DNA of 64,000 nucleotides, from positions 2,272,001-2,336,000 of the forward strand of contig OZ244799.1 in NCBI GenBank assembly GCA_965219955.1, read 5' to 3'. The stretch's first letter is position 1; every line of letters begins with the position of its first letter. This DNA is from a bacterium (GTDB taxonomy: Bacteria; UBA8248). Below the pieces are notes generated by a model that saw only the letters and a program-made list of their open reading frames with translations, did no database searches and was not told where the DNA came from. This document shows, piece by piece, positions 48,358 through 52,981 of this stretch. The position numbers were made by a program, and so were the translations under genes.

Positions 48358-49557
48358 ATGTCGAAAACAGGACGGGACCTGCTCGAGGACGCGCGGGGCG
48401 ATGTTCCTGAGATCACGGCGGAGGAAGTGAAGTACGCCGTCGATACCGGCGCCGAGGTGGCGCTCATTGACGTGCGCGAACCGGATGAGTTCCGGGGCGG
48501 CTACCTGCCGGGTGCGGAGCACGTGAGCCGCGGATTCCTGGAACTCAAGATCGAGCAGGTCGTCCCCGACAGAAAGACGCCCATCGTCGCCTATTGCGCG
48601 GGCGGCGTGCGCTCGCTGCTCGCGGGCCAGGTGCTCCAGTCCATGGGTTATCAGAACGTGAAATCCATGGCGGGCGGTTACGGCAAGTGGAAGGATCTCG
48701 GTTTTCCCGTCCAGGTGGACAAGCAAATGAGCGCCGAGCAGCTGAACCGCTACAGCCGCCACTTCTTGCTCTCCCAGATCGGGGAAAAAGGCCAGGCCAA
48801 ACTCCTGGACGCCAAGGTCGTCCTGATAGGCGCGGGCGGGCTGGGTTCTCCCACCGGGCTGTATCTGACGGCCATGGGCGTGGGCAACATCGGCATCGTG
48901 GATATGGACGTCGTGGACATGAGCAACCTGCAGCGCCAGATCGTCCACACGAACGATCGCGTGGGCACCTCCAAGGTCGAGAGCGCGGCCGCCACCTTCA
49001 CCGCGCTGAACCCCGACGTGAACGTCATCGCGCACGAAGATAGAATCAACCGCGACAACGCGCTCGATATCCTGAAAGACTACGACGTCATCGTGAACGG
49101 GGCGGACAATTTCCCGACCCGCTACCTCGTGAACGACGCGGCTGTCTTTCTCGGAAAGCCCATCGTCGACGCCTCTATCTTCAAGTTCGAGGGCCAGGCC
49201 ACCGTCTACCATCCCGCCAAGGGCGGCCCCTGCTACCGCTGCCTCTATCCCGAACCGCCGCCGCCCGGCATGGTGCCCTCCTGCCAGGACGCGGGCGTGC
49301 TCGGCGCGCTTTGCGGCACGATGGGCTCCATCCAGGCGACGGAGACGGCCAAGCTCATCGTGGGCTTCGGCGAACCGCTTATCGGCAAACTCCTGATGTA
49401 CGACGCGCTCAAATCGCAGTTCAGGACGCTCAAGATCAGGCGCGACCCCGCCTGCCCGGTGTGCGGAGACAGCCCCTCCATCACCGAGCTCATCGACTAC
49501 GAGTTCTTCTGCGGCCTCACCGAAGCCCCCGCTACGGCCTCCGTCAACGGGGGCTGA
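48358..49557 (+). CDS. moeB: Rhodanese plus MoeB/ThiF adenylyltransferase
   Basis: N-terminal DVRE and YCAGGVRS; RYSRH, GAGGLG, SNLQRQ, CYRCL, CPVC. Confidence 0.9.
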   Translation: MSKTGRDLLEDARGDVPEITAEEVKYAVDTGAEVALIDVREPDEFRGGYLPGAEHVSRGFLELKIEQVVPDRKTPIVAYCAGGVRSLLAGQVLQSMGYQNVKSMAGGYGKWKDLGFPVQVDKQMSAEQLNRYSRHFLLSQIGEKGQAKLLDAKVVLIGAGGLGSPTGLYLTAMGVGNIGIVDMDVVDMSNLQRQIVHTNDRVGTSKVESAAATFTALNPDVNVIAHEDRINRDNALDILKDYDVIVNGADNFPTRYLVNDAAVFLGKPIVDASIFKFEGQATVYHPAKGGPCYRCLYPEPPPPGMVPSCQDAGVLGALCGTMGSIQATETAKLIVGFGEPLIGKLLMYDALKSQFRTLKIRRDPACPVCGDSPSITELIDYEFFCGLTEAPATASVNGG

Positions 49558-49616
49558 TGGGAGAGAAGCGGGCAAGGAAGCGGACGTGGTGAACTAACAA
49601 AACCCAGCAAAAAGAC

Positions 49617-49646
49617 ACCCCCGGGGCATGAGCCTCGGGGGTTTTT
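49617..49646 (+). terminator. Rho-independent terminator after moeB
   Basis: ACCCCCGGGGC-ATGA-GCCTCGGGGGT then TTTT. Confidence 0.75.
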
Positions 49647-49676
49647 CGCTTTTCACATAAATTCAAAATATTTTGC

Positions 49677-49705
49677 TTGACAATAATAATTATTTGACTC
49701 ATAGT
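49677..49705 (+). promoter_or_regulatory. Sigma70-type promoter of the retron locus
   Basis: TTGACA-17 nt-CATAGT with AT-rich upstream sequence. Confidence 0.55.
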
Positions 49706-49763
49706 TAGAAATATTGCAGCAGGGTGATTCGCCCTGTATGTTCTTTGACAATCCATCTTCGAG

Positions 49764-50113
49764 TTTGGTGTTTAGACTTCTATCCGACACCTCTCCAAGC
49801 ATTCGGCTTTTCTGGATGCTTGTGCTTGAAATTTAGGCTATGCCTAAAATCCAGTGTGAAAATTCCGGCACTGTGATTTCCCATCTATGCAGCGAATCCA
49901 AGACCTTAGGTTTCCTATTTACAGAAGCATCGGGCATTGGGTTATCGGTCACTCACAAAATGAAAAATGTATGGAGAGGGCGTTCGCACTATTAATGAAC
50001 ATTATAGGCGAACTAGCGAATGAGGGGGTCTTACGGTAGATCCCGCCAGTTTCTAATCAGAAACAAACAAAGGACAAAGGAGGTGATTAGATGAAGAAAA
50101 TTTAAACACCAAA
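49764..50113 (+). ncRNA. Putative retron msr-msd non-coding RNA
   Basis: 11-bp arms TTTGGTGTTTA (49764-49774) and TAAACACCAAA (50103-50113); G49775 in TTAG context; several internal hairpins; upstream of a retron-type RT. Confidence 0.65.
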
Positions 50114-50152
50114 ATCTCCGCCCGACAACTTTATCCATAGGAGAAAAAATAA

Positions 50153-50464
50153 ATGGATAAAATCGGTAACTCGAAGGTGGGCCTTGAGAGGGCCGTAAAA
50201 GATGTTATCAAAGTCGCTTATAAGCTACTTCGGCAACAAAACGACCCTCTTATGGCGGGGACTTCAAAGGTAGTTCGTTGTCGTCTCAAGCAGCTTGAGC
50301 GTCAGTTGCAAAAAAAGCGAACGAATCCATTTCCCAAAAAAGAACTGGATAAAATCGCTAGAGAAGCAACTGACACGATAAGCTATCTTATGAAGTCCCT
50401 CATTCGTTACTTATTTTCCGCAATTTACAATTGCGAGTTATTGAAAGCATGGAAAACAAATTAG
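50153..50464 (+). CDS. Small basic helical protein, candidate retron effector
   Basis: 103 aa; AGGAG SD; overlaps the HTH gene. Confidence 0.65.
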   Translation: MDKIGNSKVGLERAVKDVIKVAYKLLRQQNDPLMAGTSKVVRCRLKQLERQLQKKRTNPFPKKELDKIAREATDTISYLMKSLIRYLFSAIYNCELLKAWKTN

Positions 50465-50754
50465 GCAACACACTAAAAGTAATTAGAGTAGCTGCAGGTA
50501 TAAACCAGTCCGCTATGGCAAAAAAGCTGGAGATTACCCAAAACTATTTGTCTTTGGTCGAAAACAATCACAAAGAACCGAGCTTATCATTCTTGAAAAA
50601 GTTTGCCTCTAGTTTCGATATTCCTCTTGGGTATTTTTTATGGCTAGCCTTAGACAAGCAAGAAAATATGGAGGAAAAAGAATTGCGTGACAAGATGGAA
50701 ATACTTCTCAAAGAAATACTAATAGGCAGAAGAAGTGAAAATGTTACAGGATAA
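50449..50754 (+). CDS. XRE/Cro-family HTH protein
   Basis: LKVIR-x3-GINQ-x2-MA-x2-LEITQNYLSLVENN-x-KEPS. Confidence 0.9.
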   Translation: MENKLGNTLKVIRVAAGINQSAMAKKLEITQNYLSLVENNHKEPSLSFLKKFASSFDIPLGYFLWLALDKQENMEEKELRDKMEILLKEILIGRRSENVTG

Positions 50755-51688
50755 ACAGCCTAATCTAAAATCATCCTGGAATTTACGGACTTTGAAAGAT
50801 TTGTCACGCCTTCTAGGTGTAAAAGAAGAAATCATAAACGAGATTTCGAACTCAGCACACTTGATGTACCGGTCGCGAGAAGAACCAAAGAAATCTGGAG
50901 GAGCAAGACCAATAGATGTCCCTGGCAATAGATTAAAATGGATACAATCGACGATTAACAAGCGTTTATTGCAAAGGACCCTCGTCCATAAATCTGCAAT
51001 GGGTGGTATTCGAGGCAAACGATTAAAAGACAATGCTCAAAAACACGTTGGGAAAAATTTAGTTGCCAAATTCGATTTAGAAAATTACTTTTCGAATATT
51101 TCTCATCAGCAAGTCTACGATCGATTTTGCTCCATTGGATGCTCCCCTGATGTGGCTAGGGTTCTCACCAAACTAACAACATATAAAGGAAGAGTTCCAC
51201 AAGGAGCACCCACAAGTACTATGCTTGCGAATTTAGTAGCTGCATTTGCAAGAGACTGCAATAGTTTCAATGCAAGAATTGTTTCACTGGCTAAAAAGCG
51301 TCGTGCAACCGCTACTACTTGGGTTGACGATGTAACAATGTCAGGCCCGCGTAATATTCAAAAAGAAGCCAATACTTTCGAGAAAATTGCTAGGCAAAGT
51401 GGCTTCATACCAAACACTGATAAAAATGAATTCATAGGTAACAACCAACAACAATTCGTCACTGGAGCAGTTGTCAATCAAAAAGTAAGCGCCTCAAAAA
51501 AATACAGGAAAGCAATACGCGCGGAACTCCATCAACTCAAAGTTCATGGCCCAAGAAATATTTGTAAAGAGCCGATCAAAAAAATAAAGGAGCAGCTTCG
51601 GGGCAAAATTGCACACATAGACAACTTAAACCCCGAGCATGGTGAAAAACTTCTAAAAGAATTCAGCGCTATCGACTGGGACTCTTAA
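50741..51688 (+). CDS. Retron-type reverse transcriptase
   Basis: KKSGGAR-x-I, LKWIQ, NAQKH (region X NAxxH), FDLENYF, PQGAPTS, WVDD, VTG (region Y). Confidence 0.93.
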   Translation: MLQDKQPNLKSSWNLRTLKDLSRLLGVKEEIINEISNSAHLMYRSREEPKKSGGARPIDVPGNRLKWIQSTINKRLLQRTLVHKSAMGGIRGKRLKDNAQKHVGKNLVAKFDLENYFSNISHQQVYDRFCSIGCSPDVARVLTKLTTYKGRVPQGAPTSTMLANLVAAFARDCNSFNARIVSLAKKRRATATTWVDDVTMSGPRNIQKEANTFEKIARQSGFIPNTDKNEFIGNNQQQFVTGAVVNQKVSASKKYRKAIRAELHQLKVHGPRNICKEPIKKIKEQLRGKIAHIDNLNPEHGEKLLKEFSAIDWDS

Positions 51689-51711
51689 AAGTCACCAACC
51701 ATAAGACTGAA

Positions 51712-52068
51712 CTACCCAATCTCCTCAAGCTCCGCCGCATCCATCACGGGCCGAATGGGGTAGCCGCCCCGCAGGAATTCGGCGAGAAAACCCAGGTGTT
51801 CGGCGAGGGCTGACATGTGCGCGGCGGCGTAGCGCGAGGAGAGCGCGTCGGCTTTCCGCGCCAGGGCTTCGCGGGCGTCCGCGGCGGGGTCATCCTGTGC
51901 GGCGAGGGCGTTATAGGCGTCGAGCAGGGCGCGCACGTCTTCGTGCTCCCCTGCATAGCCTGTATTCAGCGCATAGGGGCTTCGTAAGATCAAATGGACG
52001 GGGTTTTGCGTGTTCGAGGACTGATCGAGCATGCAGCGGCTGCGCCTTTGGTCGTAGTTTTCGGGCAT
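51712..52068 (-). CDS. Hypothetical protein
   Basis: 118 aa ORF with GAGG SD, directly downstream of the MBL gene. Confidence 0.55.
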   Translation of the reverse strand: MPENYDQRRSRCMLDQSSNTQNPVHLILRSPYALNTGYAGEHEDVRALLDAYNALAAQDDPAADAREALARKADALSSRYAAAHMSALAEHLGFLAEFLRGGYPIRPVMDAAELEEIG

Positions 52069-52078
52069 GGCGTCCTCT

Positions 52079-52981
52079 TCAACCTCCCCTTGCGTCGTGG
52101 AGCGATATCCCCTGCTCGCCCCTCCCCTTGAACTCGTTGTAGAGCTTCATCACGGCCTGTTCGACGCGGTCGGGCTTCATCCACTCGGCATAAATCCCTA
52201 AGGGAATCTCGCGCGCGGCGCGTCTGGCGGGGATTCCCTCCTTGAAACGCTTTCGCGCCTCCCGGCGCACGAGCCGAAGGTAGCCCAGGGTTTTCTCGAG
52301 TGCACTCTTGTCCCCCGGCGGCCCGTGGCCCGGAACGACCGTCTCGACGGGGAAGGTTTTGAGTATCTTCTCCGCGACCCGTATCCACCCGCCGACGTGG
52401 GCGTCGAAGGTGGCGGGCGTGACGTAGTGAAAGCAGATGTCACCGGTGAAGAGAACACGCTCTTCGGGCAGATAGACGACCGTGTCGCCTTTCGAATGCG
52501 CGTGGCCCAGGTGGTGGAGTTCCACGACGCGCTTGCCCAGGCGGAGCGTCATGCCCCCCTCGTAGATGACGTCGGGAAAGCGCTGTTTGAGCCTTTTGAG
52601 TTCCGAGGCATATTCGGGGTTCACGCCCCGGTAGTGCGCGAGGTCGAGGCCCGTTTCCACCATCCGCTCGCGCATGTAGCGGTGTGCGATGACGGGGATA
52701 TCGTTATCGAACCAGATGAGGCCCAAGGTGTGATCCGCATGGTGGTGGGTGCAGACGACCTTGCGCACCGGCTTTCTGGTCGCTTTGAGGATGGCCTCCT
52801 GAAAGGCCTGCGTCATGGGGCGCACGTAGAGCGCGTCGACGACGAGCGCCTCATCGTCCCCCACGATGAGGCCTGCGTTCGAGACGTTCAGCCCGCCCGC
52901 CTGGATGTAGGCGTAGACGCCCGGGGCCATGCGCTGAAGCCCCGTCTTCCAGCTTGTGGGCACTTTCCGGGTTCCAGCCAT
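52079..52981 (-). CDS. MBL-fold metallo-hydrolase (cyclase-like)
   Basis: SNAG, THHHADH, AHSKGD, FTGD, VPGHG. Confidence 0.9.
   Translation of the reverse strand: MAGTRKVPTSWKTGLQRMAPGVYAYIQAGGLNVSNAGLIVGDDEALVVDALYVRPMTQAFQEAILKATRKPVRKVVCTHHHADHTLGLIWFDNDIPVIAHRYMRERMVETGLDLAHYRGVNPEYASELKRLKQRFPDVIYEGGMTLRLGKRVVELHHLGHAHSKGDTVVYLPEERVLFTGDICFHYVTPATFDAHVGGWIRVAEKILKTFPVETVVPGHGPPGDKSALEKTLGYLRLVRREARKRFKEGIPARRAAREIPLGIYAEWMKPDRVEQAVMKLYNEFKGRGEQGISLHDARGG

What the first reader, a model, noticed from the sequence alone, without database searches (positions are those of the whole stretch)
49677..51688. Complete retron locus: long structured leader, small protein, HTH, RT
Seen: a sharply AT-rich 2 kb island between the moeB terminator and a convergent host gene, with a promoter, about 450 nt of leader and three overlapping ORFs. 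The RT has NAxxH and VTG. Established: these motifs mark retron RTs, and the HTH-associated architecture matches type VI retrons, which are little characterised. Inference: an anti-phage retron in which the 103 aa protein, which I cannot assign to any family, is the toxic effector. No integrase is adjacent.
Basis: partly seen in the sequence, partly recalled or inferred. Interest (0 to 1): 0.8.

Follow-up and report, generated by a model that had tools for sequence, protein, structure and literature searches.

The report
Type VI retron with small-protein toxin
A 2 kb foreign island carries a complete Type VI retron (structured RNA leader, small helical protein, HTH protein, reverse transcriptase), a kind of anti-phage system whose design was worked out in 2025-2026 preprints, so this is a new and divergent member, not a new kind.

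Summary
Window 49648-51718 is a 40% GC island in a 63% GC genome. Nine congeners join the same two flanks directly, so its ends are precisely set. It holds a promoter, a 440-nt leader and three overlapping genes: SP (103 aa), HTH (101 aa) and RT (315-317 aa).

The HTH matches PADLOC's Type VI model over its full length. The RT has NAQKH and VTG and groups with four Type VI anchors. The SP hits no family library but is a real family, found only in metagenomes. It stood upstream of an HTH and an RT in 4 of 4 loci examined, and it models as a three-helix bundle.

The SP-HTH-RT plus hybrid-RNA design is already described for Retron-Vpa2 and Retron-Sen3, so the kind is known.

New here:
- the SP family;
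- an RT subclade with W[VI]DD in place of Y[AV]DD;
- a conserved pairing between a leader segment and the SP codons for KSLIRY;
- a host from a small uncultured phylum.

RT-DNA, toxicity and defence are untested. Verdict: new member of a known kind, moderate interest.

The parts
49648..51718 (+). Whole inserted island (about 2.07 kb, GC about 0.40) between the MoeB/MoeZ-like gene's terminator and the stop codon of a convergent 118-aa gene
   Evidence: Composition. Empty sites in 9 of 10 congener loci lacking it join window 49645-49647 to 51718-51734. No target-site duplication was seen.
49677..49705 (+). Promoter-like site TTGACA-N17-CATAGT; transcription start inferred near 49712-49713
   Evidence: 10 of 12 consensus matches. 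The -10 block ATAGTTAG is invariant in all 4 related loci and a TTGACA lies 17 nt upstream in L020. The start site is inferred, not shown.
49719..49737 (+). Conserved 5' stem-loop (CAGGG-loop-CCCUG), followed by the conserved UCUUUGA
   Evidence: the stem is kept in 4 of 4 loci. [quoted passage not shown]
49753..49779 (+). 5' inverted repeat; pairs with 50098-50116 and with 50168-50180 (SP codons 6-10)
   Evidence: The best partner lies just after the SP start in 3 of 4 loci. Shuffles as good: 1/100, 4/100, 20/100. In L020 the best partner is elsewhere (78/100).
49857..50024 (+). Variable core of the leader; candidate template (msd) for reverse transcription
   Evidence: Relatives in public runs are about 89-93% identical elsewhere. 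They carry unalignable sequence of equal length at 49857-49931 (X13, X14) or replaced sequence at 49864-50024 (X5). The region aligns poorly among the 4 loci. The msd assignment is inference.
50013..50032 (+). Leader segment A (CUAGCGAAUGAGGGGGUC...), complementary to segment D inside the SP gene
   Evidence: the best site for A in the SP gene is D in 4 of 4 loci (-17.7 to -24.3 kcal/mol). Shuffled genes do as well in 2, 1, 5 and 7 of 200. L020 shows two-sided compensatory changes.
50079..50105 (+). Conserved Shine-Dalgarno-like GGAGGUGA (50079-50086) followed by a 4-codon mini-ORF (50091-50105, MKKI*)
   Evidence: The AAGGAGGUGA-like block is kept in 4 of 4 loci (AAAGAAGGGAGGUG in L020). The mini-ORF is kept only in L001 (MKIT*). 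Its role is unknown.
50130..50161 (+). Hairpin that buries the SP start codon (UUUAUCCAU / AUGGAUAAA) with AGGAG (50139-50143) in its loop
   Evidence: 9 bp, 100% complementary. Present in the MFE folds. An 8-bp equivalent is in L001; L022 and L020 bury the initiation region in other ways.
50153..50464 (+). SP: 103-aa basic protein (pI 10.05), modelled as a three-helix bundle; presumed toxin
   Evidence: No Pfam, PADLOC or NCBIfam family. 4 close and about 20 distant relatives. AF2 gives H5-28, H32-57, H62-102 with pLDDT 79. It stood upstream of an HTH and an RT in 4 of 4 loci.
50391..50412 (+). Segment D inside the SP gene (codons for KSLIRY, the most conserved SP motif), the partner of leader segment A
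50449..50754 (+). HTH: 101-aa Cro/C1-type protein of the Type VI kind; overlaps the SP end by 16 nt
   Evidence: PADLOC HTH_VI 2.1e-25, Pfam HTH_3 1.1e-11. It is the only full-length HTH_VI match in the genome: 86 bits, against 43 or less for 6 others that match only the HTH core. 44% identical to the HTH of a Riemerella plasmid Type VI locus.
50735..51688 (+). Retron RT (317 aa from GTG 50735, 315 aa from ATG 50741); NAQKH 51032-51046, FDLENYF 51071-51091, WVDD 51320-51331, VTG 51458-51466

Best explanation
This is a Type VI retron, an abortive-infection anti-phage system. It was acquired as a 2.07 kb integrase-less island. One promoter drives a long structured 'hybrid RNA' that holds both the RT template and the SP gene, followed by the overlapping HTH and RT genes. 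By analogy with Retron-Vpa2, the RT, the HTH and the RNA form a complex. The SP start site is buried in RNA structure, so little SP is made. The HTH restrains reverse transcription, and possibly also neutralises SP directly, as in Retron-Sen3. Phage functions that disturb host DNA-end processing or recombination let RT-DNA accumulate. The RNA is then remodelled, SP is translated, and the small basic helical protein stops the infected cell. Shown here: the anatomy, the family assignments, the insertion, the predicted RNA structure and its conservation. Inferred: RT-DNA synthesis, SP toxicity, the trigger and the defence itself.
For: The HTH is Type VI-specific over its full length and is the only such match in the genome. 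The RT matches retron models at 1e-68 to 1e-38 and has NAxxH, VTG and both catalytic Asp motifs. In a 112-row tree the RT's 33-row clade (SH-aLRT 96) sits in a 73-row group (SH-aLRT 92). That group holds all 4 Type VI anchors and excludes the III-A and II-A anchors. The SP models as a three-helix bundle, the fold Mestre 2020 and the Sen3 preprint report for Type VI SPs (passage). The gene order SP, HTH, RT was seen in 4 of 4 distinct loci that carry this SP family. The leader plus SP gene folds with z = -10.6, and the start codon lies in a 9-bp hairpin. The leader-to-gene pairing A:D hits the homologous site in 4 of 4 loci, with compensatory changes. Synonymous codon differences between the window and L001 are fewer in SP (16 of 102 codons) than in HTH (36 of 101) or RT (67 of 315), as expected if the SP gene is also under RNA constraint. 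An RNA-library contig of a relative about 89% identical spans 49769-51706 in one piece.
Against: No experiment bears on this locus. PADLOC's best RT model is RT_III-A (228.8 bits), slightly above RT_VI (220.5), and members of this RT clade have no clear best type. The tree had no Type IV or V references, was a quick search, and was rooted at the midpoint. The SP is longer (103 aa) than described SPs (55, 75-79 aa) and showed no sequence likeness to the one reference SP tested. The catalytic YxDD reads WVDD, whose activity is unproven. No msr/msd, a1/a2 pair or branching G could be assigned, and Rfam found nothing. The long-range A:D fold is 9-17 kcal/mol worse than the local fold. The B:C pairing is no better than chance. 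The RNA-library contig does not prove transcription, because DNA can be present in such libraries.
Confidence: 0.8

Rival explanations
1. Same Type VI retron, but working like Retron-Sen3 rather than Retron-Vpa2. SP is made all the time and is held in check protein-to-protein by the HTH antitoxin. RT-DNA is constitutive, and the trigger (for example loss of RecBCD activity) acts after translation.
For: The Sen3 preprint shows this mode within Type VI. Here the SP and HTH genes overlap by 16 nt, which suits coupled translation of a toxin-antitoxin pair. The AGGAG of SP lies in a hairpin loop, not in a stem.
Against: The start codon is fully paired in the window and in L001. The initiation region is structured in all 4 loci. 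The leader-to-gene pairing is conserved. All three point to control at the RNA level. HTH-SP binding could not be tested because the complex predictor was unavailable.
Confidence: 0.3
2. The 103-aa protein is not the toxin. It could be an RNA- or DNA-binding accessory or chaperone of the RT-RNA complex, with the effector lying elsewhere or the system serving another purpose than defence.
For: The protein is strongly basic (pI 10.05, 23 K+R). It has no likeness to any toxin family or to the reference Type VI SP.
Against: The island holds no other gene. Position, size class, helical fold and a C-terminal hydrophobic helix (KSLIRYLFSAIY) match the SP toxins shown to be toxic in two systems.
Confidence: 0.1
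3. A decaying or inactive relic: the W-for-Y change in the catalytic motif has killed polymerase activity, and the island is merely carried along.
For: WVDD replaces the canonical Y[AV]DD. The island is in only 2 of 23 genomes of the genus. In L020 the RT frame ends after 191 aa, 29 nt from the contig end.
Against: W is kept in 31 of the 32 nearest RT clusters over 45-100% identity, with both Asp, NAxxH and (V/I)TG kept; this is conservation, not decay. All three frames are intact in the window, L001 and L022. A Riemerella Type VI RT has F at this position, so aromatic substitutions occur within the type.
Confidence: 0.05

Closest known systems
Retron-Vpa2 (Vibrio parahaemolyticus; Type VI, 'Large' lineage), bioRxiv 10.1101/2025.10.22.683967
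   Same: Gene order SP, HTH, RT behind a long structured RNA that contains the SP gene ('hyRNA'). The SP start site is buried in stem-loops. The SP is small and helical with a hydrophobic C-terminal helix. The HTH is of the Type VI kind.
   Different: Here the SP is 103 aa against 55 aa. The leader plus SP RNA is about 750 nt against about 470 nt. The RT reads WVDD, not YADD. The long-range pairing ends inside the SP gene (KSLIRY codons). No sequence comparison with Vpa2 was possible because its sequences were not at hand.
Retron-Sen3 and the cl2075 lineage (Salmonella enterica), bioRxiv 10.64898/2026.04.27.721009
   Same: SP-HTH-RT order. [quoted passage not shown] A variable internal segment in the ncRNA. 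A long-range pairing that ties the ncRNA to the SP region. Signs of RNA-structure constraint on the SP gene.
   Different: In Sen3 the 3' arm (IR2) lies after the SP stop codon; here it lies within the gene. The Sen3 SP is 79 aa and its RT reads YVDD. The hosts are Beta- and Gammaproteobacteria, whereas this host belongs to a phylum with only 51 species genomes in the collection.
Type VI retron as defined by Mestre et al. 2020 (PMC7736814): clade 3 RT + cluster 2_1 Cro/C1 HTH (91-110 aa) +/- small three-helix SP (75-79 aa)
   Same: HTH of 101 aa that matches the Type VI model. Retron RT with NAxxH and VTG. Three-helix SP upstream.
   Different: The SP is larger and belongs to a family seen only in metagenomic data: 10 of 10 members looked up had no accession number. 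In 2020 no ncRNA was recognised for the type.
Unstudied Type VI-like locus on Riemerella anatipestifer plasmid NZ_CP073240.1 (73-aa protein, 98-aa HTH, 287-aa RT)
   Same: Same three-gene order with overlaps. HTH 44% identical over 82 aa. RT 29% identical.
   Different: Its SP is unrelated in sequence (hhalign probability 0.3%). Its RT reads FIDD. It sits on a plasmid among IS elements.

Membership tests
Retron reverse transcriptases | Region X NAxxH motif and region Y VTG triplet, with the RT catalytic Asp residues | tested here: met
   NAQKH aa 100-104, VTG aa 242-244, FDLENYF and WVDD present. The motif definitions come from passages of PMC7736814. The Tyr of YxDD is Trp.
Retron reverse transcriptases | Sequence closer to retron RTs than to other bacterial RT classes | tested here: met
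   The 25 PADLOC RT models shown (of 50 that matched) are all retron models, at 2.3e-68 to 8.5e-38. NCBIfam gives retron St85 8e-48, group II intron maturase 1.5e-8 and Drt2 1.8e-4.
Type VI retron | RT belongs to the Type VI RT lineage (Mestre clade 3) | tested here: inconclusive
   RT_VI scores 220.5 bits, but RT_III-A scores 228.8. The nearest RTs outside the clade are RT_VI-best. The tree groups the RT with 4 of 4 Type VI anchors (SH-aLRT 92) and apart from the III-A and II-A anchors. There were no Type IV or V references, the root was at the midpoint, and the search was quick.
Type VI retron | Cro/C1-type HTH protein of cluster 2_1 (91-110 aa) just upstream of, or overlapping, the RT | tested here: met
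   101 aa. PADLOC HTH_VI 2.1e-25 over profile positions 1-88 of 92, next best RmrA at 4.9e-8. It overlaps the RT start by 14-20 nt. It is the only full-length match in the genome.
Type VI retron | Small helical accessory protein (SP) upstream of the HTH, belonging to a known SP cluster (cl2075, cl2760, cl3272, cl3897) or to the mixed 'Large' set | tested here: inconclusive
   Position and the three-helix model fit. No sequence likeness to the single reference SP available. The cluster sequences are in supplements that were closed, so cluster membership could not be tested.
Type VI retron | Structured ncRNA/hyRNA upstream that extends over the SP gene and buries the SP initiation region | tested here: met
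   Prediction only: z = -5.6 and -10.6; start-codon hairpin; conserved 5' stem-loop and A:D pairing in 4 of 4 loci.
Type VI retron | RT-dependent single-stranded DNA made from the ncRNA | not testable with these tools
   Needs the bench. No msr/msd could be assigned, and Rfam gave no hit.
Type VI retron | SP toxicity, neutralisation by HTH and/or RNA, and anti-phage defence | not testable with these tools
   Needs the bench. The complex predictor was unavailable.

The most novel reading that the evidence does not exclude
The W[VI]DD RT clade with its roughly 100-aa SP family is a separate, so far undescribed Type VI sub-lineage of uncultured bacteria. In it the RNA switch is built differently: a leader segment (A, 50013-50032) that lies in the likely RT template pairs with the SP codons for the protein's most conserved motif (D, 50391-50412). 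Copying segment A into DNA, with loss or occlusion of the template RNA, would then be the event that frees the SP message. That would give a concrete, testable physical link between reverse transcription and toxin translation, which the Vpa2 work left open.
Probability: 0.15. Interest if true: 0.6.

Novelty: new member of a known kind. Interest (0 to 1): 0.35.

Why it matters
Type VI retrons invert the usual retron logic, and only two have been studied, with conflicting mechanisms. This locus adds a third, very divergent example. It has a different SP family, an RT with Trp in the catalytic YxDD motif, and a host from a small uncultured phylum. Its clean 2.07 kb boundaries make it easy to clone whole. 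The conserved pairing between the leader and the SP codons for KSLIRY offers specific compensatory mutants for testing how the RNA controls the toxin. It does not open a new category, because the architecture and the toxin role of the small protein are already in print.

Tried and rejected
Rfam at E <= 1 over 49000-52500 gave only a chance lncRNA match.

Foldseek of the SP model against the PDB gave no match at E <= 0.001, only generic helical bundles.

A viral-contig scan with an alignment of 12 RTs returned 7 loci, all at 32% identity or less, so no close relative sits in phage contigs.

The B:C leader-to-gene pairing that RNAalifold suggested is no better than chance. The best site was C in only 2 of 4 loci, and shuffles did as well in 76, 22, 147 and 22 of 200. 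I dropped the four-segment switch and kept only A:D.

Forcing A:D plus B:C costs 9-17 kcal/mol against the local fold in all 4 loci, so the long-range form is not the ground state.

Short direct repeats between the leader (49944-49981) and the SP start region (50145-50193) looked like the 7-nt repeats proposed for Vpa2. They are not kept in the closest relative, L001, and I treat them as chance.

PADLOC typing of the RT alone does not settle the type.

HTH_VI at E <= 1e-5 also matches 13 of 14 control genomes through the generic HTH core, so only the full-length match counts.

HTH-SP binding: no verdict, because the job failed and the tool then closed.

The depth of the RNA-library contig cannot be read as an expression level.

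I did not try to name the organism.

Supplements of the two preprints (SP cluster sequences, RT tree) were closed. They could show that this SP or RT clade is already listed in the 'Large' lineage. Searches for prior mention: 'type VI retron' (4 papers) and 'retron' + 'WVDD' (0 papers).
Full report
THE OBSERVATION. The window drops from about 63% to about 40% GC between 49600 and 51700. Three overlapping + strand ORFs fill the right two thirds of that stretch: 50153-50464 (103 aa), 50431/50449-50754 and 50735/50741-51688. Upstream lies a ThiF+rhodanese (MoeB/MoeZ-like) gene with a terminator at 49617-49642. A TTGACA-N17-CATAGT promoter-like site follows at 49677-49705. Downstream, a 118-aa gene and a metallo-beta-lactamase-fold gene converge on the island.

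THE ISLAND'S ENDS. I searched the genus with the 3' part of the MoeB-like gene and found it in 22 of 23 genomes. Ten of the fetched loci come from congeners without the island. In nine of them the sequence left of window 49645-49647 runs, after 7-22 nt, into the sequence right of 51718-51734. The tenth (L012) matched only the left flank. The insert is therefore about 49648-51718 (2.07 kb). It sits between the terminator's T-run and the stop codon of the convergent gene. I saw no target duplication, and no integrase lies in or beside it. A close copy (RT 84% identical) lies at the same site in one other species, G020 = L001. That makes 2 of 23 genomes of the genus with the island. The SP profile found a third, more distant copy in another genus of the family, so 3 of 51 genomes of the phylum carry it.

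THE PROTEINS.
- The middle protein matches PADLOC's HTH_VI model at 2.1e-25 over positions 1-88 of 92; the next best model is RmrA at 4.9e-8. In the whole genome it is the only full-length match. Six other hits cover only the generic HTH core at 43 bits or less, and the model also 'rings' in 13 of 14 control genomes at that loose level.
- The RT matches retron RT models at 2.3e-68 downward. It carries NAQKH, FDLENYF, PQGAPTS, WVDD and VTG.
- PADLOC does not type the RT cleanly: RT_III-A scores 228.8 bits and RT_VI 220.5.
- Among 120 RT homologs, the 32 nearest clusters (45-100% identity) form a clade, and 31 of them have W where RTs normally have the Y of YxDD; P0060 has Y.
- Members of that clade have no clear best PADLOC type. 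The next-nearest RTs (P0061, P0065) and a Woykebacteria RT (P0107) are RT_VI-best. True III-A and II-A RTs score 304-441 bits on their own models.
- In a quick maximum-likelihood tree of 112 rows, the clade (33 rows, SH-aLRT 96) sits in a 73-row group (SH-aLRT 92) with all four Type VI anchors. The III-A and II-A anchors lie outside. The tree has no Type IV or V references and is rooted at the midpoint, so I rate RT-lineage membership as likely, not proven.

THE SMALL PROTEIN. It hits nothing in Pfam, PADLOC or NCBIfam. It is nevertheless a real protein family. It has 4 relatives at 77-88% identity. A profile search of 1.84 billion representatives gave 22 hits at E <= 1e-3: 21 are proteins of 81-137 aa, and one is a 594-aa protein matched in 7 short stretches, which I discount. 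The shared motifs are LERS..EMIKA, DPLxAGTxK, RLxQLEKQL and KSLIRYL. Ten of ten members looked up come only from metagenomic sources and carry no accession number. In every locus where I could see context, the SP gene is followed by a Type VI-like HTH gene and a W[VI]DD-clade RT gene. Those loci are the window, L001, L020 and L022 (L021 is a near-identical copy of L022), so the count is 4 of 4. In L020 the RT frame stops after 191 aa, 29 nt from the contig end. AlphaFold2 with the 24-row alignment gives three helices (5-28, 32-57, 62-102) with pLDDT 79 and pTM 0.57. The protein is basic (pI 10.05), with its hydrophobic peak at KSLIRYLFSAIY. A three-helix bundle with a hydrophobic C-terminal helix is what the literature reports for Type VI SPs.

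THE RNA. From the inferred start (about 49713) the leader is 440 nt, and 435-498 nt in the three other loci. It folds far better than shuffles: z = -5.6 for the leader and z = -10.6 with the SP gene. Features kept in all four loci are the -10 block, a 5' stem-loop (CAGGG/CCCUG, 49719-49737), a UCUUUGA block and an AAGGAGGUGA-like block. The SP start codon is buried in a perfect 9-bp hairpin in the window and an 8-bp one in L001; the initiation region is also structured in L022 and L020. A 5' inverted repeat (49753-49779) pairs just after the SP start in 3 of 4 loci, with mixed statistical support. The best-supported long-range contact is leader segment A (50013-50032) with segment D (50391-50412), which encodes KSLIRY. 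D is the best site for A in 4 of 4 loci. Shuffled genes match the energy in only 2, 1, 5 and 7 of 200 trials. In L020 two positions changed on both sides, together with I>V and R>S in the protein. The companion B:C pairing is not supported. The long-range form costs 9-17 kcal/mol more than the local fold, so it would be an alternative state. Between the window and L001, synonymous codon changes are rarer in SP (16 of 102 codons) than in HTH (36 of 101) or RT (67 of 315). The numbers are small, but they fit an RNA constraint on the SP gene.

PUBLIC READS. Relatives about 89-93% identical occur in runs labelled sponge metagenome. One contig from an RNA library covers 49769-51706 in a single piece, which is compatible with one transcript but proves nothing. 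The leader core is replaced or unalignable in these relatives (49857-49931; 49864-50024; 50060-50171) while the rest stays conserved. A hypervariable core inside conserved stems is what retron templates (msd) look like. This is my basis, by inference only, for placing the template there.

WHAT IS KNOWN.
- Mestre et al. 2020 defined Type VI as clade 3 RTs with a 91-110 aa Cro/C1 HTH and, in some, 75-79 aa three-helix proteins (passages).
- Zhang et al. 2025 (sections 7-10 read) showed for Retron-Vpa2 that the SP is the toxin. It is encoded within a roughly 470-nt hybrid RNA that also holds the RT template. Its RBS and start codon sit in stem-loops. The HTH restrains reverse transcription, and phage-induced msDNA is needed for SP translation.
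- Garcia-Rodriguez et al. 2026 (abstract and sections 25, 27-29, 33) showed for Retron-Sen3 a constitutive SP neutralised by the HTH, constitutive ssDNA, RecBCD inhibition as the trigger, a conserved 5' stem-loop, a variable internal segment and a long-range pairing around the SP gene. They resolved five RT sublineages, including a mixed 'Large' one with unclustered SPs.
- The present locus fits this design point by point, so the kind is known.

WHAT DIFFERS. The SP family is new to the libraries and unrelated in sequence to the SP of a Riemerella plasmid Type VI locus that I fetched as a reference; the HTHs of the two loci are 44% identical and the RTs 29%. The RT clade has W[VI]DD, whereas Vpa2 has YADD, Sen3 YVDD and Riemerella FIDD. 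A search for 'retron' with 'WVDD' found no paper. The 3' arm of the long-range pairing lies inside the SP gene. The host belongs to a phylum with only 51 species genomes in the collection. Because supplements were closed, I cannot exclude that this clade is already among the 'Large' lineage entries.

VERDICT. This is a complete, apparently intact Type VI retron. I put 0.8 on that identity and on the SP-toxin abortive-infection logic. I lean towards RNA-level control of SP, as in Vpa2, over purely protein-level control, as in Sen3. All functional steps are inferred. It is a new member of a known kind, with interest 0.35. Tools that were closed or unavailable: the search of earlier findings, complex prediction, the look-up of encoding contigs and paper supplements.

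Noticed in passing
window 50079-50105: A perfect Shine-Dalgarno-like GGAGGUGA is followed 4 nt later by a 4-codon ORF (MKKI*). L001 keeps an equivalent (MKIT*). L022 and L020 keep the SD-like block but have no ATG. It could be a decoy ribosome site or part of the switch.
   Followed up: partly
window 51712-51720 versus L007-L017: The convergent 118-aa gene ends ...EEIG* in the window and ...EEVG* in the other island-bearing genome (G020), but ...EEIS* in genomes with an empty site. The insertion seems to have replaced its last codons.
   Followed up: partly
L001 4952-5030: The copy in the other species carries about 75 extra AT-rich bases between the RT stop and the host gene. These are absent from the window.
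   Followed up: no
L004 (G001) and L005 (G006): Two other genomes of the genus encode a different RT, 29% identical to this one (E 1e-19 to 1e-18), at unrelated places.
   Followed up: no
L037 2218-3629 (Riemerella anatipestifer plasmid NZ_CP073240.1): An unannotated Type VI-like retron (73-aa hypothetical protein, HTH, 'reverse transcriptase family protein' reading FIDD) sits among IS elements beside a floR gene.
   Followed up: partly
window 49669-49684 and 49737-49752: A 16-nt direct repeat (81% identical) places one CTTGACAAT-like copy over the -35 box and one about 25-40 nt into the transcript. The downstream copy's CTTTGA core is kept in all 4 loci. It may be an operator for the HTH.
   Followed up: no
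window 50153-50464 versus L001 3419-3739: Synonymous codon differences are about half as frequent in SP as in HTH (16 of 102 codons against 36 of 101).
   Followed up: partly
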